From an uncultured virus (IMG/VR IMGVR_UViG_2740892351_000003) (Duplodnaviria; Heunggongvirae; Uroviricota; Caudoviricetes): a stretch of DNA of 64,000 nucleotides. The notes beneath the pieces are model-generated. The model had not been told where the DNA came from. It saw nothing but the letters and a program-made list of their open reading frames with translations, and did no database searches. Positions within the stretch are counted from its first letter, which is position 1. Every line of letters starts with the position of its first letter. Location of the stretch: IMG/VR virus record IMGVR_UViG_2740892351_000003, positions 62,001 through 126,000 of that record. One strand, 5' to 3'. Shown here one piece after another: positions 1-62,402 of this stretch. Made by a program: the position numbers and the translations under genes.

Positions 1-1233
1 TTTAACTGTATAAACATTTCCATTATATTTAATCAAGTCATTTGGCTGATACAATGATTTTTGCTTCCTTATTCTTCTTTGACCTTTAGATATTTTCTGA
101 CCTCTGAACATTCTAAGATTTTCAGAATTTAAATTCTTGTTTCTAGTCCTTCTTCCACAATTAAGTTCACTTGCGGAAACCTTCTCACCAGTTCTATTAT
201 CTATATATTTAGCATCATAGAATTTTTCAAGACTTCTATTATTTAATCTTGACTGTTCAACTTTAAATATTTCTAAATTTCTAACTTGATTAACACCTTT
301 AGCTATAGCAAAAGCATCATTAAAATGACTTTTTTCTATACCATGTTCAATTCTATGATTTTTAGTCAAATAACCATAAGTTGCTTTAATGTTAGTATAT
401 TTTTCTTTCAACTGTTCCAATAAGTACCATCTTATCATTGACATAAATGTAGCATCTCTAAAACCTCTGACCTTTTTACCATTTTCACACCAATCATACA
501 AAAATTTCCCCTTTTTATGATTAGGAGATGTATGACATTTATTACACAAAGTTATTAAATTACTAGGAGCATCAGAACCACCCTCACTCTTGTACTTAAT
601 ATGATGAATTTCTAATATTTGTTCTTTACTCTTATTCTTACAATTAGGATTTTGACATTTATGTCCATCTCTATGAAGTACATATTCTCTAACATTCCAG
701 AAACCCATTTGTTCTCCCTGTTGATATTCTACACCAGATATATCAGGATTCTTGATTTTTTGTATATCAAAATTAGCAACCTCTAATACTATATTTCTGA
801 TAGGCAATATAGAATTAAGATAATCTATAAATTTAAGATGGGTATTCAATTTATGTTGTAAACTTGGTGCTAACCATCCTTGTCTTATTTTTCTATTGTT
901 CCATCTAGGTTTTCTATATCTTAATCTTTGTCTCCTAATTCTTCTATACTGACTTTTTTCTAATAATCTATCTTTCATACCTTGAAGCAATTTTACTTCT
1001 CCAACTATTAATTCTTTACTATCTGTTATAGCTGAAAATCCTATATTTAAATATCCACTATCTATCCCCAATGTTATAGTTTGAATATATTCAGTATCTG
1101 TCTTATACAGTAATTGTATAATAAATGGATTAACTTTTTTAACAGTAGCTTTCTTTTGATTCAATAATTTTCTAGCCTTTGCATTAGTAGTAGGCATTAA
1201 TGGCTTTCCTTCAAAATTAATTACATATACCAT
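1..1233 (-). CDS. iscB: IscB RNA-guided endonuclease (IS200/IS605 OMEGA system); 3' end runs off the window
   Basis: Not in the ORF track. Manual translation from ATG at 1233: MVYVINFEGKPLMPTTNAKARKLL (PLMP domain), LGIDSG (RuvC-I), RRIRRQRLRYRKPRW (bridge helix), LEVANFD (RuvC-II), RDGHKCQ..EIHHI..GGSDAPSNLITLCNKCH (HNH), KSHFNDAFAIA (RuvC-III). Confidence 0.95.
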   Translation of the reverse strand, partial: MVYVINFEGKPLMPTTNAKARKLLNQKKATVKKVNPFIIQLLYKTDTEYIQTITLGIDSGYLNIGFSAITDSKELIVGEVKLLQGMKDRLLEKSQYRRIRRQRLRYRKPRWNNRKIRQGWLAPSLQHKLNTHLKFIDYLNSILPIRNIVLEVANFDIQKIKNPDISGVEYQQGEQMGFWNVREYVLHRDGHKCQNPNCKNKSKEQILEIHHIKYKSEGGSDAPSNLITLCNKCHTSPNHKKGKFLYDWCENGKKVRGFRDATFMSMIRWYLLEQLKEKYTNIKATYGYLTKNHRIEHGIEKSHFNDAFAIAKGVNQVRNLEIFKVEQSRLNNRSLEKFYDAKYIDNRTGEKVSASELNCGRRTRNKNLNSENLRMFRGQKISKGQRRIRKQKSLYQPNDLIKYNGNVYTVK

Positions 1234-1477
1234 AGTATAATCCTTTCAGATAATTTAACCTCACCTTACGGTGGTAAGCTCTCTTCGCCAATGTTATGAA
1301 AGGTTTTAAATATACCACACTTCACCTACCATCAGTGATGTTTAATGATATACCGTAGAGTTTAGGACTAGAGAAGTATCCTAAAGTACCTATATATTCT
1401 TACATAACGTAGTTAAAACTTAGGCTATTCAACTAGCTTTTGCAAGCTACTACCCTTTAGGGTAATTGGCGGTTGAC
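1234..1477 (-). ncRNA. omegaRNA (HEARO-type) scaffold of IscB
   Basis: Non-coding ~245 nt immediately 5' of iscB. Starts GTCAACCGCC..TACCCTAAAGGGTAG and contains AGCCTAAG, CTACGTT and CATTGGCGAAG motifs typical of HEARO/omegaRNA, plus several hairpins. Confidence 0.85.
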
Positions 1478-26627: not shown

Positions 26628-26704
26628 AGGGATATAGCTCAGGTGGTTAGAGCATTCGGTTTATACCCGAAAGGTCATAGGTTCGACTCCTATTATTCCT
26701 ACCA
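26628..26704 (+). tRNA. tRNA-Ile (anticodon UAU)
   Basis: AGGGATA/TATTCCT acceptor stem, GCTC/GAGC D stem, TTCGG-TTTATAC-CCGAA anticodon arm, ATAGG-TTCGACT-CCTAT T arm, encoded CCA. Confidence 0.9.
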
Positions 26705-26709
26705 AATAT

Positions 26710-26800
26710 GGAGAGGTACTCAAGTGGTAAAGAGGATAGTTTGCTAAACTATTAGTTCAATTAATTTGATACGAGGGTTCAAATCCCTTCCTCTCTTCCA
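26710..26800 (+). tRNA. tRNA-Ser (anticodon GCU), long variable arm
   Basis: GGAGAGG/CCTCTCT acceptor stem, ATAGT-TTGCTAA-ACTAT anticodon arm, GAGGG-TTCAAAT-CCCTT T arm, CCA. Confidence 0.88.
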
Positions 26801-50629: not shown

Positions 50630-52741
50630 GTGGTTAAAGATGTTAAGTTGAAGAAGGGTATGTGTAGAGATGAAGTTAATAGGTTGTTGAAGGAACATGA
50701 TGTTGATTTAGAGTTGGTTGATGAGATATATGGTGGAGTAGATTATAAATATAATTGGAGATGTGAGTGTGGAGAGGTATTTATAAGAACTTGGTATAAA
50801 ATTAAATCCAGAAAATCAATAAGATGTTTAAAATGTGTGAAGAATATTAAAGATGAATATGAAAATATATCAGAAGTACGTATATCTAAAGGTATGTCTA
50901 AAGATAGAGTTAATAAATTTATAGATAAGTGGTTATTATTGGCAGATGATATTTATTTAGGAAATAAATATAAGCACAATTGGAGATGTAAAGAATGTGG
51001 TAAAACTTTTGAGGCGAAGTGGTCGGACATTCAAGGAAAGTGGAAAAATTTAAAATGTAAAAGTTGCAAATATAACATGAAAGATTTTTATAATTCTATT
51101 CATGAAGTCGTATTAATAAAGAATATGAGTAAAGATGAAGTTAATAGATTAATTGGGAAATGGGTGTTATTAGAGGATAGTTTTTACAAAAACAATAGTT
51201 ATTCACATAAATGGAAATGCATAGAATGTGGGAAAGTATTTAAAAGGACTTGGAGTAGTATAAAATCAGGAAATAGAACTAAATGTGAAAATTGTAGATT
51301 AAATTTAAAGAGCTTTTATAATAATGTTTCTGATGTAAATTTAGTAAAGAATATGACTAAAGATGAAGTTAATAAGTTGATAGAAAAGTGGATATTGTTA
51401 GAAGATGATACTTACAAAAACAACAGTCATTTACATAATTGGAAATGCTTGGAATGTGGAGAAGTATTTAAAAGACGTTGGAATGATATTAAAAAAAATA
51501 ATAGGATAGAGTGCAAAAATCATAAAAATGAAAATAAATATAAATATGAAGTTGAAAAAACTGGAGAATACGAATATATAAGACGTTTTAGAACAGGAGA
51601 AGTGCTACCTAATGGCAAAATAGCAAAAGCTCCTTATATTCAAATAAAACATAAATTTTGTGAAAGTATTTATGAAGTATCAGCGAACTCTTTTATAAAT
51701 ATGAAACAGAGATGCCCTAAATGTTGTGGTTCGTATGAAAATTCATTTGCATATTACATTGAAAAAGAATTAGAAGAGTCACTAGAAAAATATTGGGATT
51801 TTGAAAAGAATATAGCCAACCCATATCATATTAGTAAGAATAAAAGCAATAAAAATTCAAAGGGAGAAGATACCAGAGTATGGATTAAATGTCAGAACAA
51901 AGATTATCATGGTAGTTACATAACTTCAACTCATAGTTTTGTTAGAGGAAGTAGATGTCCTTATTGTGCTTCAAAAAAAATTCATGTAAAAGATTCCTTT
52001 GTTCAATATCATATAGAAAATACAGATAAGAATTTTATAAAAAAATATTGGGATTTTGATAAAAACACAATTGATTTTTTTTGTTTAAGCAAGAATACTA
52101 TAGAAAGGGTCTGGATTAAATGTCAGAACAAAGATTATCATGGTAGTTATAGTGTAGATTGTGATAGTTTTACTAGAGGTAGTAGATGCCCTTATTGTAG
52201 TGGAAAAAGAGTTAATTTTAAAGACTCATTTGGATATAATTATTTTGATATGGCTCAATCGTGGAGTCTAAGTAATAGTATAAGTCCATTTAAAGTAATG
52301 CAAACTAGTGGGAAGAAGTATAAATTTATATGTCCTAAATGTGGAAATGAATTTTCAAGAAGATTAGCAGATGTAGGAGAAAAGGGGTGTATATGTCCTA
52401 AATGCTCTAAAAGTAAAGGAGAAAAAAGAGTAGAACAGTATCTTATAAATAATAATATTAAATATAAAGATGAAGTAAAATTCAAATCTCTAGTTAGTAA
52501 TTTAGGGAATCCTTTGAGATATGATTTTTATTTAATAGATTATAATATTTTGATAGAGTATGATGGAGAATTTCATTTTAAGGAGTACTTTGAAGGTCAA
52601 AAATTTAATAAAAACTTATTACATGACAAAATGAAAAATGATTATGCTAAAGAAAAAAATATAAAGCTTATAAGAATTCCTTATTGGGATTTTGATAATA
52701 TAGAAGAAATATTAGATAGGGAGATAAGAAGTCTACTTTAG
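50630..52741 (+). CDS. Multi-zinc-ribbon protein with C-terminal Vsr/DUF559-like nuclease (homing-endonuclease-like)
   Basis: Four ~75-aa repeats (WxCxECGxxF..W), repeated WIKCQNKDYHGSY..CPYC units, C-terminal SKGE..YDFYL..IEYDGEFH..HDKMKNDYA..LIRIPYW. Confidence 0.8.
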   Translation: MVKDVKLKKGMCRDEVNRLLKEHDVDLELVDEIYGGVDYKYNWRCECGEVFIRTWYKIKSRKSIRCLKCVKNIKDEYENISEVRISKGMSKDRVNKFIDKWLLLADDIYLGNKYKHNWRCKECGKTFEAKWSDIQGKWKNLKCKSCKYNMKDFYNSIHEVVLIKNMSKDEVNRLIGKWVLLEDSFYKNNSYSHKWKCIECGKVFKRTWSSIKSGNRTKCENCRLNLKSFYNNVSDVNLVKNMTKDEVNKLIEKWILLEDDTYKNNSHLHNWKCLECGEVFKRRWNDIKKNNRIECKNHKNENKYKYEVEKTGEYEYIRRFRTGEVLPNGKIAKAPYIQIKHKFCESIYEVSANSFINMKQRCPKCCGSYENSFAYYIEKELEESLEKYWDFEKNIANPYHISKNKSNKNSKGEDTRVWIKCQNKDYHGSYITSTHSFVRGSRCPYCASKKIHVKDSFVQYHIENTDKNFIKKYWDFDKNTIDFFCLSKNTIERVWIKCQNKDYHGSYSVDCDSFTRGSRCPYCSGKRVNFKDSFGYNYFDMAQSWSLSNSISPFKVMQTSGKKYKFICPKCGNEFSRRLADVGEKGCICPKCSKSKGEKRVEQYLINNNIKYKDEVKFKSLVSNLGNPLRYDFYLIDYNILIEYDGEFHFKEYFEGQKFNKNLLHDKMKNDYAKEKNIKLIRIPYWDFDNIEEILDREIRSLL

Positions 52742-52818
52742 GTAGGCTTTTTATTTGTAGTATAAATTTTCTTTTAGACTTGATATAATTAAAATATCAG
52801 AGCATGAGGGGGAATATT

Positions 52819-53874
52819 ATGTTTAAAAAGATATTGTTGATTGGACTTGTAAGTATACTAGGATTTGGAGTTATTGGATGTAGTGATAGCAAAGAAGAAA
52901 AAGTAGATTATGATTATTATAATTCAAGTACATCATTAGCGTTTAAAGATGGTTTAGCTCGTGTAAAAGTTGGAGATAAGTGGGGGTTTATTGATAAAGA
53001 AGGTAATGAGGTTATAAAACCTCAATTTGATAATGCTGAACATTTTTTTGAAGGATTAGCTGTTATAGAGAAGGATGGTAAGTGGGGGTACATAGATAAA
53101 AATGGAGATATAGTTGTAAAACTACAGTTTGACTATGCTAAATCATTTAGTGAAGGATTAGCTGGGGTTGAAATAAATGATAAATCTGGTTATATAGATA
53201 AGACTGGAGAGATGATAATAGAACCACAATTTGATTATGTTAATGAGTTTAGTGAAGGTTTAGCTAATGTTTCAAAGAAAAATGAACATGGATATATAGA
53301 TAAAAAAGGAAATCTTGTTATTGATTATCAATTCAATGAAATTAGTGGTGAATTTAATGAAGGATTAGCATATGCAATGATTGAGGATGGTAATCGTGAA
53401 TATATAGATAAAGAAGGAAATATTTCTATTCAACCTAAATTTAAAGAAGCGGATAATTTTAATGAAGGATTAGCTAGAGTTAAAACAGATGATAAATACG
53501 TATATATAGATAAAACTGGTAAAACAGTTTTAAAACCAAAATACAATTATCTAGGAAGTTTTAAAGATGGATTAGCACCAGTAGGTATGAATGATAAGTA
53601 TGGATATATAGATAAAAAGGGGAACACAGTAATAGAACCCAAATTTGATTATGTTAAAGAATTTAGTGAAGATTTATCAGAAGTCAAAATGAGTGATAAA
53701 TGGGGATACATAAACAAAAAAGGTGATGTTGTTATAAACCCAAGATTTGATGAGTCTAATCCATTTAAAGAAGGATTGGCATTTGTTTTAAAAGATGGAA
53801 AATGGGGAGCTATAGATAAAGAGGGGAAAGTTATTATAGACTTTAAGTATTCAGACGAGGATTTGAAAAATTAA
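52819..53874 (+). CDS. WG-repeat lipoprotein
   Basis: Lipobox VIGC after a signal peptide; about seven F.EGLA.V...KWGYIDK.G repeats. Confidence 0.9.
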   Translation: MFKKILLIGLVSILGFGVIGCSDSKEEKVDYDYYNSSTSLAFKDGLARVKVGDKWGFIDKEGNEVIKPQFDNAEHFFEGLAVIEKDGKWGYIDKNGDIVVKLQFDYAKSFSEGLAGVEINDKSGYIDKTGEMIIEPQFDYVNEFSEGLANVSKKNEHGYIDKKGNLVIDYQFNEISGEFNEGLAYAMIEDGNREYIDKEGNISIQPKFKEADNFNEGLARVKTDDKYVYIDKTGKTVLKPKYNYLGSFKDGLAPVGMNDKYGYIDKKGNTVIEPKFDYVKEFSEDLSEVKMSDKWGYINKKGDVVINPRFDESNPFKEGLAFVLKDGKWGAIDKEGKVIIDFKYSDEDLKN

Positions 53875-53893: not shown

Positions 53894-53918
53894 GACAGTC
53901 AATTGACTGTCTTTTTTT
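53894..53918 (+). terminator. intrinsic terminator after the WG lipoprotein gene
   Basis: GACAGTC-AATT-GACTGTC-TTTTTTT. Confidence 0.7.
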
Positions 53919-53941
53919 ATACAAAAAAAGGAGTTGAGTAG

Positions 53942-56900
53942 ATGGCTGAAGAGTTTAAGATTAAGACCAGTATTGAGCTTGATGACAAAGAAGCTAGAGA
54001 AAAAATAGAGAAATTAAAAAATAGTGGTCAAGATAAACCTATTAAATTAAATTTGAAAATAGGTGAATTAGATAAGTTATCACAACAAGCAGAGCAATTA
54101 AAAGGGATATTCAATAAAGCTTTTAAGATTGATAATACTGCTTTGAGCAACTTAAAGCAAATTGAATCTACTATGAAAGAAATAAATAAACTAAGTAGAA
54201 GAAGTCAAGAGAGCTTACTTGGTGGTGGCTTTGGAAACACAGGAAATATAAATAATGAACAGCAAGATTTAATAAGACAATATAAAGAAATCTCAAATGT
54301 TGTATCTAGACTTCAAAATCAGATGAGAACAGGTCTAGGAGATAGTTCAATTGAAAGAACAACAGAACAAATTGAAAGATTAAAAAGACAATTAGATTCA
54401 GTGTATGCACAAATGAATTCATCATCTCAAGCTAGAATGGATATGTTTGATGCTTCAAGAGCAACAAGAGATTTAGCTGATATGAATAGAAATCTTTCAA
54501 GAATAGAAGATATGGCAACACAAGCATCTGCTAGGCTTAATGGATTAGGCGATAATATAGATACAGATAAAGTAAATAGACTTAGGAATGAGTTACAAGA
54601 ATTAAAACAGACAGCTAGTAGAAATATAGATTTAAATCTTGATGTAGGTAATATAGTTAATAGAATACAAGAGATAAATCAAGAAGTTAGAAATTTAGAA
54701 AGAGTTGATAGCTTAAGGTCTAATTTCAGTAGAATAGAAGATTCTATTAGACAGGCATTTGGGCATGAGAGAGTTGAAGCTTTTAGACGTTCTTTAGAGC
54801 AACTTCAAGGTTCGGCAGGAAATCTAAATGGTGATTTTAACAATATATTTGATAGACTAACAAGAGAAATGAGAGATGCGAGACAAGAAGCTGAAAGATT
54901 AAATAATACAGTTTCAAAGGGTGGAGGGTTTTTTAATGATTTCTATTCATCTATAGCATCCTATTCTATTGGAGATATGTTGGGCGATGCTTTAACTGAC
55001 GGAATTAGGTCTATGAAAGATGTTATATTAGAGCTTGATAGCTCTATGACTGACCTTAAAAAGGTTGCAGAACCAACAGATATTGATAGCACATCTGAGT
55101 TAGATAAGATAAGGGAAAAAGCAATACAAACAGCTAAAGATGTAGGAATGAGTGCATCACAAGTTCAAGAATCAATAGCATCTTCTTTACAAGCAGGAAT
55201 TGGAGGTATGCAAGAAAGTATTGCTGCTGCAAGACAATCAATGATACTTGCCAATGTAGGGGACATGGATGTTGAAGGTGCTTCTTCAGCAGTAAACACA
55301 ATAATAAATGGATTTAGAATTGAACCTTTAAAAGAAATGCAAGTGCAGGTTGGAAATACTACAAAGAAAACAACAGAATTAACTGCTGCAATGGATATGC
55401 TAAATTGTTTGGCGTGTTAGATAGAAATATCTAATATTATGAGGGGGCAAAATCGGTGAAGGCTGAGATGCTACCACCGAGGTAAATTAAAGAATTAAAA
55501 AACTTTAATCACCGTAACGCATAGGAAATGAACCTATGCTATTTTTATGTTTAAAATAGTATAGAATATAATTTTCCCACGAGTGTCCTCCATCTTAACA
55601 GATAGTGCTGAAGATGAAAATATATGCTGAACTTACATGAATAAGAAATGTAAGAACTACAAGATAAAAAGCTTGTAGGATAACAATTTGAAACTATGCA
55701 GGAAATAATTATGCAATTGGAACAGCAGGTGTTGCCGAAGCGATTAATTTTAGTCGCCTTATATAGTAATATATAATGATAAACTCCTTTAACTGCTGGA
55801 AACTCCTGTTAGGCTTTTAGTACTAAGTGTAACAATCTAAAAGATAGGGACAATCAGCAGCCAAGACTCAATAGAGTAAGGTTCAACGACTAGGTTATAA
55901 ACCGTACATATCAAGCTATTGGATATGGAAATGGGGAGCATCCTTATAGGATGAAGATATAGTCTCGTCTGTATGGAAACATATAGCAGTTCATAAGAGA
56001 ACGGATTAAGTGTAGCGAACTTAATTGAAGATAAACGGAAACGTGGAGGTAGTGTACTTCATGAGTATGGTGTCAGTTTAGGTGACACAGTGGGTATGAT
56101 AACAGCAACAAATGAGGCTATACAAAATCCAGAAAAAGTAGGTAAATTTAAATTGCCGTCTTAGTTCAACAATCATAGAAGAATTAGGATTATTAATGGG
56201 AAAGAAACGGGAAAGCTTTAAAATGCCAATCCGAGTGGAAGGCTAATTTTAAAAGATTAGTCACACGCAACGCATAGAGATTGAAACTAGAAATAGAATA
56301 TAATATCTCCAAGAGTTCCCATTTGCTTTATGATTTAATTATAAGTAAAAAAGGTATGCTAGACTGGACTTGAAATGACAAGTCGATGAAAATGAGGGAA
56401 ACCTCCAGAGCAGTAGATAAAAAGCTACTGGTTAATAACAATCGAATGGTTTAAAAAGTGTCGCAATAAATTTAGCAGGTATGAAGGTTTCAGCTGATGA
56501 TGGTACACTTTCTTTAAATAAAACTGCAAAAGGTTTAAAGGAAATAGCTGGAATAACTATTTATAAAAATAAAGATACTGGTGAATTGAAGAATATGGTT
56601 CAACTCTTAGATGAGTTGAAAGGCAAATGGGGAGAACTCAGAGAGGATGAACAAAAAGGATTGGCTGAAGCAATAGCAGGTAAGCAACAAGCAGCTATAT
56701 TCCAATCCTTAATGGGTAATTATGAGACTTTTAAAGAAATAAGAAGTGAATTTTCACAAGGATTACAATTTGGTTCGGCTGAGGCTGAAAACAAACAATA
56801 TTTAGATAGTCTTGCAGGGCGTTTAAATGAGTTGAAAACAATATGGGCAGATATATTCCAAACTGTATTTAATTCAAATACAACATATGGATTTTTAGAT

Positions 56901-59900
56901 GGTTTAATATCTGTATCTAATGGAATAAATAGTGTTATAAAAACATTAGAAAGATTAAAATTAACAACACCAGCATTAATAGGAAGTTTTATGACTTTAA
57001 AAACGTTATTCTCTGGTATGGGAATGACAAATGGTACTAGAAATGTGGCTAGACTTATAAATCCTTTAAATATGATAGGAACTCCTATTAAAGCTACAAC
57101 TACAATACTACAATCATTTAGACATGCAGTAATGGCAGCAAATGTAGCTGGTGCTAATGGAGCAAATGTAATTACTAGAGCAGGAACAGGTTTGGGAGCA
57201 TTAAGACAAAGTTTATCTAGGACTTCTATTGGTATTGGAACATTAAATATAGCAACAAGTTTGTTAAATGGAGCTATGATAGGTTTAGCTACTTTTGCTA
57301 TATCTAAGGGGATACAATGGATAGATGATACTATTCATAAATATGAAAAACTAGCAGAGAAGCAAAAAGAAGTTATTGGAACTACTACAAGTGAGATAAG
57401 CTCTTTGCAACAGAAGAAAAAGAGTTTAGAGGGTATATCAGAGGAGTACAATAATTTAGCTAGTAAAACCGAAAAAACTGCTGATGAAACTGCTAGATTT
57501 AGTGAACTTAAACAACAAATTGCAGATATAGCACCAGAATTAGTATTGGGTGTAGATGAGAATAATGACCCTATTCTAAATATGAGTGGTAACTTAGATG
57601 AGGTCATTAATAAATTAAGAAAGGCTATAGAAGAAAAAAATAAACTTTTAAAGTCTCAAGAAGATGAACTTGCAATAACTACATCAAAGACTGCACCAAA
57701 TACAAAAAAAGACCTTGATAAAGAAAAGAAAAAACTTGACAAAGTTCTTGAAGATGAGAATAATTTATTTAAAAATGCTTTAAGTAAATCTAATTTTAAA
57801 GAACAAACAGAAGCATTAAAAAAGGCTTACAACCAACAAGAAACTGATTTTGCAGAACATCATCAAAACCTTCTTACTGAATATGAAAAATATAATGAAG
57901 AAGAAGAGGTAATGCAAAAAAGGGCAATTAATAGATTAACTAATTCTGATATATCTAAAACATATGCTAAGCAATCTGAACAAAAGAAAAGTAAAATGAA
58001 TGAGCTTGTGGCTAATATGAATTGGCATGACTATAGTGTAGGACAACAGAATAGTATTATAAGTGCTTTTGATAAAATAAGTCAGTCAATTCCTGTTGAA
58101 AAATTAGACCAGTGGAATAAGAAGATAACTGATGCCAATACAAATTATCAAGCATCTGGCGATATGAACCAATATACTAAAGAGTTACAAGGTTTAGCAA
58201 ATGAACTTCAAAAACTAAGTGGAGGAAGTATAAGTGCTGATACATGGCTTGTTGGATTACAACAAGGCTTCTATGGATTAGATTTAGCTAGTGTAAAATT
58301 ACATACTTTCTTGAAAAGTTATGGTTCGTCTTTAGCTGAATTTGAGAATAAAGACAGTCTTGCAATAAAGCTTAAAAATCAATTTGATGCATTAAATGAT
58401 TTTTCTCAAGATTTAGAAGTCAATGGTAAAATCAATGTAAAACTGCTTGAAGATATACAAAGTGGAGAAGATGGTCAAGATTTACCACAACAATTAAAAG
58501 AATTTATAAATGGAATAATGGCTGATGGTGATGCTCCAATTGAAGCTGAATCAGAACTGCTTCTTCAAATTACTACTAAAATTGAAAATGAAGGGCAATT
58601 ATCAAATGATGTTGTTGAAAAGTTAAACAGACTTTTTAAAGGTGAATTAACTCCATTAGAAATAGGTGATGGATTAAAAATCAGTGATGATTTACCTCCA
58701 TTATCAAAAGAAATGGTTCAAGCATTAAATGATAAATATAAAGAAGAATTTAAAAAGAATAAAGTTGCACCTGAAATTACCCCTAGTGTCAATGGAAAAA
58801 AAGCTAAAAAAGAATTAAAAGAATTAGAACAATTCAAAAAAAACACATTTAAATCAGATAAAATTGTGACTGAAATTAATAATAAAGGACTAGATTTCGC
58901 AAAAAAAGACTTGAGTGTATTAAAAGAACAGTTGGATAGATTTAAAAATGAAGATACAAAGTTGTCTTTTACTACAGATTGTGCAGATGCTTTTAAAGAT
59001 GTAAATTCTTTAGAGGAAGCTAGAAAAAAAATATCTGCTCCAATGAGTTTAAAATATGATATAGATGTAGATAAAAAAGGATTGACTGAAGCAAAAAAAG
59101 TCTATGATATTTTACCTGATAATCTCAAAAAAAAGATAGAAACAGAAGTAATAGGTATAGATAAATTAGACACATTACAAAACTTAATAGATAAAGCTCC
59201 AAATAAAAAAGAAACTATATTTGAAATAATTAATAAAAATCCAGATAAACTAAATGAGATAGATGAAATTCTTAATAATGTTCCAAATGATAAAAAGGAA
59301 GCTGTTATTGATTTTATAGTAAACAATTTAGACCAACTTGAAAAAGCTAAAAATGTACAAGAATTAATAAACAGTCTACCTCCAGAAATAAAAAAACAAC
59401 TTGGAATAGAAGTTGAAGGAGGAGAAAATGCAGAGAAAACTGTTAATACAGTTCAAAATGCAGATGGAACTAAGGCTGACCTTTTAGTAAATGCAGAAGT
59501 AAATGGAGAATCACAAGTAGTTGAATGCATAGAAACATTAGATAAGAATGGGAATAAAACATACACTCCTAATTTGAATCCTCAAGTTAATAATAGTGAA
59601 AAAGTTGTTCAGTGCATGAGAATATTAGATGAATATGGAAATGAATCTTATATTCCAATTGTAAGTCCTCAAGTTACTAATGAAGAAGGGCTTAACAGTA
59701 CTAAACAAAAAATGGATGAGTTAGATAATAAAACAGTAACTTCAACTGTACAAATAAAGACAGAAGGAGAAACTGAAGTTGAACAAGCAACCAATTTTAT
59801 AGAAAATACAAATCCAACTAAGGTTATTGAGTTATCCATAAACAACTCTGGTAAAGATGAAATTGACAATACAAAACAAAAGTTAGATGAACTTAATAAT

Positions 59901-62402
59901 GAAAAAGCCACTCCTACTATTGAAGCTACAGGTGCAGAACAAGCATCCAAACAATTAAATCAATTATCACAAAAAGCACAAGAAATTGGGCAAGGTAATT
60001 ATCATATAAATGTTAGTACTTCAACTGAACAAGGGGCTAAGAATATTTCAGGACTTATAGCTAGAGTAAAACAATTCTTAGCTTTGAAAGTATCTACACT
60101 TGTATTTAGAACTGAAACTGCACAAGCAGCAAAAAATGTATCAGGTTTGTTAGCCAAAGTACAAAGTTATGTTAGCCGATATGGTGGAAAAACTATAAAG
60201 ACTACATTTAGTGCATTAACTGCAACTGCTGCAAAGAACATATCAGGGCTTATTAGGAAAATAGAGTCATTTAAATCAAATTATGCAGGAAAAACATTCA
60301 CTACTACATTTGTAACTAATAAAGTGACTAATAGTTCTGGTGGTGGAGGAGGAGGAAATAGTTCAGATAAGACCAATAAAACTGAACGTACCTCTGTTAC
60401 TAATGTAACTCCAATTCCAGCTAATCTATTAGCTCAACCTAGAACATCAGAACCAGCACCAATAAGTGACGAAACTCCTGTAACACCAAAACCATCCTTA
60501 TTCTCAAGAGCAGTATCAAGAGCCACATCCGCTTTCAAAGTAATCAAACCTAAAGTTACAATAAACAATGACACAATAGACTCATCTGTAAAATATAGTA
60601 TAGAATTATTTAAAGAGTTAGAAAATGCTATATCAGCAGTAACAAATGAAATAGCTCTATTAGACAAAAAAATGGAACATGCTACAGGTGATGAGAAGAT
60701 TAAATACTTACAGGAGCAAAATAAATTATTTGCTCAACAAAAAGATTTAATAAAACAACAACAAGATGGATATAAAGCTGAAAGTAACAGACTTAAAAAT
60801 AGATTAAAAGAAAAGAAAATGGGCTTTAAGTTTGATGATACTGGAAATCTAACTAACTATGAAGAAAAGTTAATATCAATAGAAAAAGAATTAGACAAAT
60901 TAAATTCAAAGTCTGGTGACAAAGAAAATAAAAAAGATGAATCCAGAAAAAAAGAGTTGGAAGAAACTAAGAAAGTCCTTGAAGAATATATTAAAGTTAC
61001 ATTTACAGAACTGCCTAAATGTGAGCAAGAATGGGAAGAATACAATAATAAAATTAAAGAACACAATGAGGAGTTAAGGAAAGCACAAGAAGAAATGTGG
61101 AAACTTAATAAGAATTCCACATGGACTTCTATGTACAAAGATGTAGAGCAAGTAAATAATGAAATAGCAATGATAGATGTATTACTTAAAAATGCTACAG
61201 GTGATGAGCAGATAGAGTTGTTAGAAAAGAAAAAAGAGTTAATGGCCAAGAAGGCTAAAGAACTATCTGAAACAACAGCATATCTTCAAGAAACACAAAA
61301 AGAGCTACAACAAAAGCTACAAGGCTATGGATTTACATTTAGAGATAATGGCGATATAACTAACTTCATTCAACATAAAAATCAACTTAAAAAGAACATG
61401 ACTGATGAAGAATTTAAGAGAATGGAAGAGGCAGCAGAGGGATATTTGGATTTATTGATAAATAAAATACCTGATGCCAATAAGGAAATTGCTGAATCTA
61501 AGGAAGAAATTGAAGCATTAAATAAAGAAATTCAAGATGCTTATAAAGACCAGCTTAAAGAAGCTCAAAGCCTACAAGAAAAAATTAGAGACATGTATAA
61601 AAAAGAGCTTGAAGAGAGACTTAAAGAAATAGATAAAGAAACTAAAGCTAAAATTGATTCTCTTAAAAAGCAACAAGATGCTTACAATGATTCAAGAAAA
61701 GAAGCCAAATATAAAGATGATTATGAAGAACAACAAGATGTAATAAGTGATTTAGAAAAACAAATAGCAATAGCTGAAAGAGATAGTTCTTTAAGTGGTC
61801 AGAAGAAACTTAAAGATTTACAAAAACAATTAAAAGAAGAACAGAAGAAATTACAGGATTTAGTACAAGACCATGTAGACGACCAAGTTAACGATATGTA
61901 TGACAAGGAATCTGACAGACTACAAGAAGAAGCAGATAAGTTAAAAGAAGAGTTAGAGAAAAAATACTCAGATGAAAATTTAGTTGATTTAATTAATGAA
62001 GCAATTTCAAGTGGTAAATTTGTAGGTCTTGATGGAGAGGTTAAGAAACTTCAAGATGCTATTATTGAATACATAAATAAATATGAAGATGGTATGTTGG
62101 CAATGGGTTCTGTCACTAAGCAGGAATGGCTTGATAAGCTAAAAGAAGGTAAAGAGACATTAGAAGATATTAACGACATATTAGATGAATTAGATTTAAG
62201 TAAATTTGCTATGCCTAATTATAATCCTTCTTCAAATTCTCGTTCAAGAAGTGTGTCTCCAACATCATCAGTCAACTTTAATTCACCATTCTTTGTTGTT
62301 CAAGGAAATGTAACTAAGGATACTATGAAAGACTTAGAGAAATTTGGTAGAGATTTAGAAAATAGAGTATATAGAAAAATAGTAGAAAATATTAAATCAT
62401 AG
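53942..62402 (+). CDS. Tape measure protein, spliced: join(53942..55401,55691..55744,56038..56143,56445..62402), 2525 aa
   Basis: The TP901-type TMP core (ELDSSMTDLKKV, ILANVGDM) continues across the junctions as MDML-NYAGNNYAIGTAGVAEAM-KRGGSVL..NPEKVG-NGLKSVAINL. Total 7578 nt in one frame. Confidence 0.9.
55402..55690 (+). ncRNA. Group I intron 1 (289 nt, no ORF)
   Basis: Exon ends in U and pairs with IGS GGCGUGU; terminal G; P4 AUCGGUG/CACCGAG; P7 GCAUA/UAUGC. Confidence 0.85.
55745..56037 (+). ncRNA. Group I intron 2 (293 nt, no ORF)
   Basis: Canonical P AACUGCUGGAAA, Q AAUCAGCAGC, R GUUCAACGACUA, S AAGAUAUAGUCU. Exon GCGAU pairs with IGS GUCGC; terminal G. Confidence 0.92.
56144..56444 (+). 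ncRNA. Group I intron 3 (301 nt, no ORF), related to intron 1
   Basis: Exon GGU pairs with GCC; AAACGGGAAA/AAUCCGAG; CAACGCAUAG..GUAUGCUAG (P7); terminal G. Shares AUAGAAUAUAAU and AGAUAAAAAGCU with intron 1. Confidence 0.85.

What the first reader, a model, noticed from the sequence alone, without database searches (positions are those of the whole stretch)
55402..56444. Three ORF-less group I introns packed into the tape measure gene, creating 54-nt and 106-nt micro-exons
The apparent split TMP (492 aa + 1973 aa) becomes a single 2525-aa frame when 55402-55690, 55745-56037 and 56144-56444 are removed. Each 5' exon ends in U paired to a G of an internal guide sequence, each intron ends in G, and core P4/P7 elements are present. 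Introns 1 and 3 are relatives; intron 2 is a different subtype. Phage group I introns are mostly known from DNA-metabolism, terminase and lysin genes, so a triple cluster in an essential tail gene is unusual. Tail assembly would depend on three splicing events. The exon phases (2, 2, 0) mean that skipping the 54-nt exon keeps the frame, which could give a TMP isoform 18 aa shorter. Unspliced RNA yields a 492-aa truncated product.
Basis: partly seen in the sequence, partly recalled or inferred. Interest (0 to 1): 0.85.

Follow-up and report, generated by a model that had tools for sequence, protein, structure and literature searches.

The report
Three introns in phage tail-ruler gene
The gene that sets tail length in this Clostridioides difficile phage is interrupted by three small self-splicing RNA introns, a real but already documented kind of arrangement that makes databases list the gene as two separate proteins.

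Summary
Removing 55402-55690, 55745-56037 and 56144-56444 gives one open 2525-codon frame. The close relative LIBA6276 naturally lacks inserts 2 and 3, with junctions identical letter for letter to the predicted joins. An uninterrupted 2528-aa tape measure protein (TMP) of Brevibacillus phage Sundance aligns colinearly through both micro-exons. Pfam PF10145 and phrog_4211 resume across the junctions. Intron 2 scores 103.7 bits on Rfam RF00028. Introns 1 and 3 fall below threshold but belong to a widespread phage intron family whose group I fold is supported by covariation. A contig from an RNA-Seq library joins 55401 directly to 55691; intron 2 is retained in that contig. Seven related phages carry introns at nine different sites of the same TMP core. 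Novelty is modest: group I introns at three TMP sites of Bacillus cereus-group prophages were published in 2008 (PMC2504315), and phiCD211's record already annotates one such intron. The exon-skipping isoform has no support. New member of a known kind; interest about 0.4.

The parts
53942..55401 (+). TMP exon 1 (486 codons + 2 nt; ends in U)
   Evidence: phrog_13137 2.2e-216; phrog_4211 profile 290-706; PF10145 profile 1-76 of 201. Sundance TMP residues 547-843 align here.
55402..55690 (+). Intron 1, 289 nt, ORF-less group I intron, family A
   Evidence: RF00028 only 16.5 bits, E 0.22. 90-96% identical copies in 5 related phages at 3 different sites. Fold supported by covariation. P1 up to 8 bp with U.G at the splice site, P10 4 bp. 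A contig from an RNA library joins 55401|55691.
55691..55744 (+). TMP exon 2, 54-nt micro-exon (18 codons)
   Evidence: Aligns to Sundance TMP 845-865. Contiguous with exons 3-4 in LIBA6276, where PF10145 covers profile 83-201 at 50.5 bits.
55745..56037 (+). Intron 2, 293 nt, ORF-less group I intron, family B
   Evidence: RF00028 103.7 bits, E 8.1e-26, full-length model match over 55736-55986. Exactly absent from LIBA6276. 93-94% identical copies in AR1086-1 and ES-S-0107 at other sites. P1 5 bp. Retained in the X1 RNA-library contig.
56038..56143 (+). TMP exon 3, 106-nt micro-exon
   Evidence: Aligns to Sundance TMP 863-897, 42.9% identity, E 3e-5. 97% identical to LIBA6276 L001 3746-3853.
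56144..56444 (+). Intron 3, 301 nt, ORF-less group I intron, distant family A (A3)
   Evidence: Exactly absent from LIBA6276. About 77% identical to introns in the topoisomerase II genes of Yersinia phage phiR1-37 and Bacillus phages AR9/PBS1; the AR9 CDS is annotated as a 3-piece join. RF00028 only a 12.9-bit partial hit. Shares the covariation-supported family fold. P1 3 bp, P10 3 bp.
56445..62402 (+). TMP exon 4 (1985 codons + stop)
   Evidence: phrog_10871 E 0; phrog_4211 profile 794-1410. Sundance residues 936 onward align.
50630..52741 (+). Context only: free-standing HNH/homing-endonuclease-like ORF (703 aa), 1.2 kb upstream of the TMP gene; possible trans-acting mobility factor (inference)
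   Evidence: phrog_559 HNH endonuclease 4e-89, phrog_9084 homing endonuclease, phrog_7140 intron-encoded nuclease; Pfam DUF4379, 4 stretches. Matches in 456 phage records; among the 7 phiCD211-like genomes compared (window included), found besides the window only in ES-S-0173 and pCD1602_4.

Best explanation
The window carries the tail tape measure gene of a Clostridioides difficile phiCD211-like siphophage (complete 139-kb virus record). Three small ORF-less group I introns interrupt the gene inside its most conserved part, the PhageMin_Tail core. The gene is transcribed as one pre-mRNA. Each intron folds into a ribozyme. Its internal guide sequence pairs with the last bases of the upstream exon, with a U.G wobble at the splice site (P1). 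The intron is then removed by the usual two-step, guanosine-initiated transesterification ending at its terminal G. An in-frame stop 6-7 codons into each intron halts ribosomes on unspliced RNA. Ligating the four exons gives one 2525-aa TMP. Shown here: the sequence anatomy, exact junctions for introns 2 and 3 from a natural intron-less allele, the intron 1 junction from an RNA-library contig, the conserved fold, and colinearity with uninterrupted TMPs. Inferred: self-splicing chemistry, efficient splicing of all three introns in this phage, and dependence of tail assembly on it. The introns belong to two lineages that occupy at least nine sites of this TMP core in related phages, each lineage always following the same short exon motif that matches its guide sequence.
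For: Frame: one open 2525-codon frame after removal. Intron-less allele: LIBA6276 junctions equal the predicted joins of exons 2/3 and 3/4. Distant uninterrupted homologue: Sundance 2528-aa TMP aligns 547-843 / 845-865 / 863-897 / 936+ to exons 1-4. Domain continuity: PF10145 profile 1-76 in exon 1, 83-201 from exon 2 onward in LIBA; phrog_4211 profile 290-706, 721-1384, 794-1410. Ribozyme identity: intron 2 RF00028 103.7 bits. For family A, my structure on a 71-row MAFFT alignment has 73.7% of cells paired, against 56.5% in shuffles (0 of 500 reach it) and 36-46% with slid partners; covariation score 0.343 against 0.133. Register-free P3 test: mean stem 6.19 bp against 4.03 cross-paired, 54 of 68 with 6 bp or more. 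Intron 3 is homologous to introns in annotated split topoisomerase II genes. P1/P10: U.G at every 5' splice site. The guide sequence differs between window intron 1 and the phiCD211-type copies in step with the different 3' exons, keeping a 4-bp P10. RNA: in RNA-Seq run X1 a 479-nt contig (depth 17.7) carries the last 16 nt of exon 1 directly before 55691. A 1485-nt contig in the same run goes from exon 1 into the intron. A family-A intron 8 nt downstream of site 3 in that variant phage also appears in both joined and unjoined forms. All 7 related genomes give open frames (0 stops) once their 12 mapped introns are removed.
Against: RF00028 does not reach its gathering score of 50 for intron 1 (16.5 bits) or intron 3 (12.9 bits, partial). 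On the MAFFT alignment P1 (36%), P3 (43%) and P6a (47%) pair poorly; only P3 was rescued by a register-free test. P1 is only 3 bp for intron 3, and intron 2 has no directly adjacent P10 (4 bp only with a 1-nt offset). The RNA evidence consists of assembled contigs from a library that may contain DNA, in a variant phage about 90-97% identical to the window, not the window's own phage. The same contig retains intron 2, and no joined form of intron 2 was listed (8 records not shown). No intron-less DNA allele of site 1 was found in the phage collection. Two of the 71 alignment rows (L015, L016) repeat the window's own introns.
Confidence: 0.88

Rival explanations
1. The TMP is truly expressed as two (or more) separate polypeptides, as public records annotate it, and 55421-56480 is a non-coding spacer.
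For: LIBA6276, phiCD211 and AR1086-1 annotate two CDSs. PHROGs holds separate families for each half: phrog_13137 and phrog_10871.
Against: Both micro-exons encode conserved PhageMin_Tail residues, colinear with uninterrupted TMPs. The spacer is exactly absent in part from a 97% identical relative, without loss of frame. The spacer contains a 103.7-bit group I intron. The annotated ATG at 56481 lies 36 nt inside exon 4.
Confidence: 0.03
2. The inserts are group I introns, but one or more no longer splice efficiently (decaying elements in a defective or poorly productive prophage), so little or no full-length TMP is made.
For: Intron 2 is retained in the X1 contig that has already lost intron 1. 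P1 is short (3 bp) for intron 3, and intron 2 lacks an adjacent P10. The introns are ORF-less. [quoted passage not shown]
Against: Copies stay 90-96% identical while host TMP exons diverge to about 30% protein identity. Core helices covary. The guide sequence has adapted to its site. A partially spliced intermediate is expected for a multi-intron transcript. phiCD5763, a related big phage, is reported to infect and propagate (PMC5786514 discussion passage).
Confidence: 0.08
3. The elements spread as DNA transposons (ORF-less IStron-like or MITE-like elements moved in trans by an IS200/605-type transposase), which would explain many sites sharing only a short conserved 5' flank.
For: Target conservation lies mainly on the 5' side, and no target duplication is seen. 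C. difficile is the original IStron host (PMC4227781 passages). An IscB-type HNH ORF with HEARO RNA is in the window.
Against: Published IStron criteria are not met. Targets here are GCT, GCGAT or GGT, not TTGAT, ATTAT or TTTAT, nor GG-ending with the intron starting after G. The 3' ends are TTG, ACG, TCG or AAG, not TCAG or CGG. There is no IS remnant in 268-301 nt. The conserved flank is what P1 pairing requires anyway. No TnpA gene was looked for in the genome.
Confidence: 0.04

Closest known systems
Group I introns TMP-IVS1, IVS2 and IVS3 in tape measure genes of Bacillus cereus-group prophages (Tourasse & Kolsto 2008, PMC2504315; section 8 read)
   Same: Small IA-type group I introns, mostly without a functional endonuclease gene, at several sites of a Firmicute prophage TMP gene. 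Up to two per gene are described in the section read. Related introns sit at different sites with P1/P10 adapted to each, and different introns sit at the same site. Patchy distribution among related phages.
   Different: Different host genus and phage group. Here there are three introns in one gene within 1043 nt, micro-exons of 54 and 106 nt (33 nt in phiCD211), and nine sites within about 150 codons across seven genomes. No sequence comparison with the Bacillus introns was made here.
Staphylococcus phage Twort orf142: a single gene with three group I introns and exon skipping (Landthaler & Shub 1999; only the title was seen, in the reference list of PMC11878797; paper not held)
   Same: Three self-splicing group I introns in one phage gene. 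The 3' half of window intron 2 has about 78% DNA matches to introns in Staphylococcus myophage recombinase genes.
   Different: A different host gene. Exon skipping is documented there (by the title) and has no support here.
Intron_gpI misc_RNA annotated between the two 'tail length tape measure protein' CDSs of Clostridium phage phiCD211 (NC_029048.2)
   Same: Same phage group, same gene, same conserved core. The annotated element is a distant relative of window intron 2 (59% identity).
   Different: The record annotates one intron. I map two there (288 and 275 nt, with a 33-nt micro-exon between them), at sites not used in the window. The CDSs are still annotated as separate proteins.
Multi-intron genes of Bastillevirinae phages (PMC11878797; passages read)
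   Same: Phage genes split by two or three group I introns. Alternative spliced variants are reported. RF00028 alone was insufficient, so subgroup models (GISSD) were also used.
   Different: Those introns are mostly in DNA polymerase and terminase genes, have a mean length of 802 nt and often carry endonuclease genes. 'Tape measure' does not occur in that text.

Membership tests
Group I self-splicing intron | 5' exon ends in U that forms a U.G wobble with the internal guide sequence (P1) | tested here: met
   T at 55401, 55744 and 56143. P1 of 8, 5 and 3 bp with G at intron positions 10, 9 and 12.
Group I self-splicing intron | Intron ends in G (omega G) | tested here: met
   G at 55690, 56037 and 56444. 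Among the boundary options left open by repeated bases, only these have U before the intron and G at its end.
Group I self-splicing intron | Match to Rfam RF00028 at gathering score (50 bits) | tested here: inconclusive
   Intron 2 met (103.7 bits). Intron 1 (16.5 bits) and intron 3 (12.9 bits, partial) not met. 0 of 19 other family-A loci reach 50 bits (best 42.6), so the model under-calls this family.
Group I self-splicing intron | Conserved core helices P3-P9 including the P3/P7 pseudoknot, supported by covariation | tested here: met
   Family A: 59 of 72 pairs show changes on both sides; 73.7% of cells paired against 56.5% shuffled and 36-46% slid. P4/5 78%, P6 72%, P7 97.5% (invariant, so uninformative), P8 83%, P9 78%, P9.1 87%. 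P3 supported by the register-free test. Weak on this alignment: P1 36%, P3 43%, P6a 47%.
Group I self-splicing intron | Precise absence from homologous intron-less alleles | tested here: met
   Introns 2 and 3: LIBA6276. Intron 1: no intron-less DNA allele found; the joined form is seen only in an RNA-library contig.
Group I self-splicing intron | Splicing in vivo at the predicted junctions | tested here: inconclusive
   Junction 55401|55691 is present in a contig of RNA-Seq run X1, alongside the unspliced form. Intron 2 appears only unspliced. For intron 3 only a related intron at a neighbouring site was seen joined. These are contigs, the library may hold DNA, and the phage is a variant.
Group I self-splicing intron | GTP-dependent self-splicing in vitro | not testable with these tools
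   Needs a bench assay.
Subgroup IA (extra P7.1/P7.2 between P7 and P3'; definition recalled, not from a call) | P7.1 and P7.2 hairpins | tested here: inconclusive
   Intron 1 has an 11-bp P7.2, absent from intron 3. On the alignment, P7.2 cells are 92% paired but most rows are gapped there, and P7.1 is 63% paired. In intron 2, about 45 nt inserted between P7 and P3' in the Rfam alignment are consistent with P7.1/P7.2.
Mobile intron carrying a homing endonuclease gene | ORF for an endonuclease inside the intron | tested here: not met
   No ORF of 40 aa or more on either strand within 55421-56480. The introns are 289-301 nt.
IStron (group I intron fused to an IS200/605 or IS607 element; criteria from PMC4227781) | Target TTGAT/ATTAT/TTTAT with 3' end TCAG, or GG-ending target with 3' end CGG; IS ORFs or their remnants | tested here: not met
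   Targets are GCT, GCGAT or GGT; 3' ends are TTG, ACG, TCG or AAG; there is no room for an IS.
Tail tape measure protein with PhageMin_Tail core (PF10145) | PF10145 domain in a very long protein within a tail module | tested here: met
   Exon 1 covers profile 1-76 (25.4 bits, below the 33.2 cut-off because truncated). LIBA exons 2-4 cover profile 83-201 (50.5 bits). Sundance covers 2-199 (88.2 bits). phrog_4211, phrog_13137 and phrog_10871 are all 'tail length tape measure protein'.

The most novel reading that the evidence does not exclude
The PhageMin_Tail core of phiCD211-like tape measure genes is a landing pad where two ORF-less intron lineages have repeatedly moved to new codons. There are nine sites in seven genomes, plus up to three more suggested by sequencing runs. 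Site choice appears to be set only by the few exon bases that pair with the intron's guide sequence: family A always follows GCT and precedes an A-run, which together complement its guide; family B always follows GCGAT. That pattern is the footprint expected of ectopic transposition by reverse splicing, a route long proposed for group I introns but poorly documented in nature. Alternatively, the variable free-standing HNH nuclease gene just upstream mobilises them in trans.
Probability: 0.3. Interest if true: 0.6.

Novelty: new member of a known kind. Interest (0 to 1): 0.4.

Why it matters
Practically, public records and PHROGs treat this essential tail gene as two proteins, and the general Rfam model misses two of the three introns. 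Automated annotation of these C. difficile phages therefore mis-states the TMP, and with it any inference of tail length or gene content. Biologically, late-gene expression of the tail ruler would depend on three ribozyme reactions. The family also offers an unusually dense natural series for studying how ORF-less group I introns reach new sites: the same intron at different codons, different introns at neighbouring codons, and micro-exons down to 33 nt. The kind of arrangement itself is already in print for Bacillus prophages.

Tried and rejected
(1) A full-length covariance model of family A was not built: about 300 positions exceeds the tool's stated time forecast. I used a MAFFT alignment plus pair counting instead.

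(2) An exon-skipping isoform (55401 joined to 56038): no such joint was listed (8 records not shown). No support either way.

(3) RNA runs X4 and X5 show only unspliced introns of phiCD211-type and AR1086-type phages. Their exons differ too much from the window to say anything about it.

(4) X9 (library kind unknown, 0.56 of sampled words) appears to lack intron 2 at site 2 and to carry a family-B-like insert near 56113-56122. I did not resolve this arrangement.

(5) Tail length as a check on TMP length: no figure in PMC5786514.

(6) Garneau et al. 2018 (PMC5772226) and Landthaler & Shub 1999 (PMC22036) are not held. The former may already describe phiCD211's TMP intron.

(7) Searches 'phiCD211 + intron' (4 papers, none on TMP introns in the passages read) and 'difficile + group I intron + phage' (45 papers, listing only) showed no description of TMP introns in C. 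difficile phages. PMC5786514 and PMC12671070 contain no occurrence of 'intron'.

(8) The Sundance row of the alignment anchored on the wrong motif, so its numbering there is void. One search is the valid comparison.

Earlier 293- and 295-nt lengths for the AR1086-1 and ES-S-0107 introns were corrected to 294 nt.

(10) HNH ORF versus intron number: HNH-positive genomes carry 3, 3 and 1 introns; HNH-negative carry 2, 1, 1 and 1. Too few to conclude anything.

(11) The search of earlier findings returned nothing.
Full report
**What is there.** The window is bases 62001-126000 of a complete 139,236-bp virus record. Its closest named relatives are the large Clostridioides difficile siphophages LIBA6276 and LIBA2945, at 97.6% identity over the parts shared. 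More distant relatives are phiCD211/phiCDIF1296T, AR1086-1, pCD1602_4, ES-S-0107-01 and ES-S-0173-01. ORFs 53942-55420 (492 aa) and 56481-62402 (1973 aa) flank a stretch with no ORF of 40 aa or more on either strand. Both ORFs match PHROG 'tail length tape measure protein' families.

**Check of the observation.** Removing 55402-55690 (289 nt), 55745-56037 (293 nt) and 56144-56444 (301 nt) leaves 7578 nt that read as 2525 codons and a stop. The exon phases are 2, 2, 0. A T precedes each insert and a G ends each one. Read-through from each upstream exon stops after 6-7 codons. An open frame can always be engineered by choosing coordinates, so the real tests follow.

**Test 1: a natural intron-less allele.** LIBA6276 keeps insert 1 but lacks inserts 2 and 3. 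Its sequence across both positions is identical, letter for letter, to the predicted joins of exons 2/3 and 3/4. Repeated bases leave 2-3 alternative cut positions.

**Test 2: a distant uninterrupted homologue.** Brevibacillus phage Sundance encodes one 2528-aa TMP. By tblastn, its residues 547-843, 845-865, 863-897 and 936 onward fall on exons 1, 2, 3 and 4 in that order. Exon 3 aligns at 42.9% identity (E 3e-5).

**Test 3: domain continuity.** PF10145 (PhageMin_Tail, 201 positions) covers profile 2-199 in Sundance. It covers only 1-76 at the end of window exon 1. It covers 83-201 from the first codon of exon 2 in LIBA6276, where exons 2-4 are contiguous. The full-length TMP profile phrog_4211 shows the same pattern: 290-706 for exon 1, 721-1384 for LIBA exons 2-4, and 794-1410 for exon 4 alone. 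The micro-exons are therefore genuine coding pieces of the most conserved part of the protein.

**Are the inserts group I introns?**
- Intron 2 matches Rfam RF00028 end to end at 103.7 bits (gathering score 50).
- Introns 1 and 3 do not: 16.5 bits (E 0.22) and a 12.9-bit fragment. They are 66% identical to each other, against a shuffle mean of 12.8% and maximum of 47.1%.
- Intron 3 is about 77% identical to sequences inside the split topoisomerase II genes of Yersinia phage phiR1-37 and Bacillus phages AR9/PBS1. The AR9 CDS is annotated as a three-piece join.

**Family A fold.**
- From those 80 I kept 70 representatives under 88% identity. I dropped one that was cut by a contig end, and aligned 69 with the two window introns.
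- I drew the structure by hand on intron 1: P1, P2, P3, P4, P5, P6/6a, P7, P7.1, P7.2, P8, P9 and P9.1, with P3/P7 crossing as in group I introns.
- On the alignment, 73.7% of cells pair, against 56.5% in shuffles (0 of 500 reach it) and 36-46% when partners are slid. The covariation score is 0.343 against 0.133. 59 of 72 pairs change on both sides.
- P7 is invariant, and its sequence context parallels the Rfam consensus P7.
- P1, P3 and P6a pair poorly on that alignment. A register-free test rescued P3: mean own-partner stem 6.19 bp against 4.03 cross-paired, with 54 of 68 sequences at 6 bp or more.
- Caveats: two rows (L015, L016) repeat the window's introns, and the structure was derived from one of the rows.
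- RF00028 reaches its threshold in 0 of 19 other family-A loci (best 42.6 bits). Failing that one membership criterion therefore says more about the model than about the RNA.

**Splice-site helices.** Every copy has U.G at the 5' splice site.
- Window intron 1: P1 of up to 8 bp and a 4-bp P10.
- phiCD211-type copies of the same family carry a different guide segment that pairs with their different 3' exon. This is a compensatory difference between sites.
- Intron 2: a 5-bp P1, but P10 only with a 1-nt offset.
- Intron 3: only 3 + 3 bp.

**RNA evidence (one call allowed; all runs are assembled contigs).**
- RNA-Seq run X1 carries a variant of this phage, with roughly 90-97% identical pieces.
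- A 479-nt contig (depth 17.7) lies on 55691-56145. The 16 letters before it equal window 55386-55401, as I checked. That is exon 1 joined to exon 2 exactly at the predicted junction.
- A 1485-nt contig in the same run passes from exon 1 into the intron.
- In that variant, the third intron is a family-A copy sitting 8 nt downstream of the window's site 3. It too appears both unjoined (depth 12.9) and joined (depth 5.1), and the join preserves the same six amino acids as the start of window exon 4.
- Against: the 479-nt contig still contains intron 2, and no joined form of intron 2 was listed. An RNA library can contain DNA, and 8 records were not shown.
- I read this as moderate evidence for splicing of the family-A introns in vivo, and as no evidence either way for intron 2.

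**The wider picture.** Using pairwise DNA comparisons and frame checks, I mapped 12 introns in seven related genomes. Every spliced product is open. The occupied sites, with the flanking amino acids, are:

| Site | Position | Family | Genomes |
|---|---|---|---|
| 1 | N^YAGNN | A | window, LIBA6276 |
| 2 | YAG^NNF | B' | pCD1602_4 |
| 3 | TTGD^VGAA | B | ES-S-0107 |
| 4 | VAEA^M | B | window |
| 5 | QNA^EK | A | phiCD211, pCD1602_4 |
| 6 | EKVG^NGLK | A3 | window |
| 7 | KTIG^INM | B' | phiCD211 |
| 8 | AEAI^SGK | B | AR1086-1 |
| 9 | AEAAA^GKY | A | pCD1602_4, ES-S-0173 |

- That is nine sites within about 150 codons.
- pCD1602_4 also has three introns. phiCD211 has two, separated by a 33-nt micro-exon.
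- Family A copies always follow GCT and precede an A-run. Family B copies always follow GCGAT. B' and A3 copies follow GGT.
- Runs X1, X5 and X9 suggest up to three further sites.
- Of the 80 IMG/VR family-A loci, 5 (L015, L016, L058, L063, L090) lie beside TMP-like coding sequence. L015 and L016, on one 240-kb contig, reproduce the window's arrangement and may be the same phage.

**Mobility (inference).** The introns carry no ORF. Sharing only the guide-complementary bases across sites fits ectopic insertion by reverse splicing, a route discussed for ORF-less introns in PMC2504315. It equally fits survivorship, because only insertions that can form P1 will splice.
- A free-standing ORF 1.2 kb upstream (50630-52741) matches PHROG HNH, homing-endonuclease and intron-encoded-nuclease families.
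- Among the seven genomes it is present only in the window, ES-S-0173 and pCD1602_4. That makes it a candidate trans-acting factor and nothing more.
- IStron membership was tested against published criteria and is not met.
- Unexplained: window site 4 and AR1086-1 site 8 share an identical 13-nt 5' flank, longer than P1 needs.

**Comparison with what is known.**
- Tourasse & Kolsto 2008 (PMC2504315, section 8 read) describe IA1/IA2 group I introns at three sites of the TMP gene in B. cereus-group prophages. They report related introns at different sites with adapted P1/P10, and targeting of the most conserved exon stretch. This is the same kind of arrangement.
- A single phage gene with three group I introns is known from Twort (title only seen). 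Genes with two or three introns are known from Bastillevirinae.
- The phiCD211 RefSeq record annotates one Intron_gpI between its TMP halves.
- In the library searched, I found no description of TMP introns in C. difficile phages. The main phiCD211 paper is not held.

**Verdict.** This is a new member of a known kind, with some added value:
- three introns and two micro-exons within 1 kb;
- a nine-site hotspot across relatives;
- an intron family that Rfam under-calls;
- a systematic two-protein mis-annotation.

Interest 0.4.

Noticed in passing
window 1-1477 (- strand): HEARO RNA (RF02033, 128.5 bits, 1274-1477) lies directly upstream of an ORF (1233..1, runs off the window) with Pfam RRXRR (3.3e-60) and HNH domains. 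This is an IscB-type RNA-guided nuclease pair carried by a C. difficile phage.
   Followed up: partly
window 50630-52741 (+): A 703-aa ORF with four DUF4379 treble-clef zinc-finger stretches matching PHROG HNH and homing-endonuclease families. Its C-terminal half has homologues in 456 phage records, often several places per genome, and it is variably present among phiCD211-like phages.
   Followed up: partly
window 52804-53874 (+): A 356-aa protein made of nine WG-containing beta repeats (PF14903, 1.7e-103), immediately upstream of the TMP gene where tail chaperone genes usually lie.
   Followed up: no
window 26628-26797 (+): Two adjacent tRNA genes, the second with a long variable arm.
   Followed up: no
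L012-L034 and L002: RF00028 reaches its gathering score in 0 of 19 IMG/VR loci of the family-A intron (best 42.6 bits). It also gave no hit at E<=1 on the phiCD211 locus, although that record annotates Intron_gpI there. A widespread phage group I intron family is therefore under-called by the general model.
   Followed up: partly
window 53906-54008 vs L001 690-793 (also L002, L003): The first ~100 nt of the TMP gene are repeated (79-86% identity) at the start of a small upstream ORF in related phages. phrog_29638 matches TMP residues 1-29.
   Followed up: no
window 55732-55744 and L003 3005-3017: An identical 13-nt 5' exon flank precedes family-B introns at two different codons of the TMP in two phages. 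This is longer than the 5-bp P1 requires.
   Followed up: no
PHROGs phrog_13137 and phrog_10871: The two halves of the intron-split TMP exist as separate 'tail length tape measure protein' families in PHROGs, so the split annotation has been carried into a reference library.
   Followed up: no
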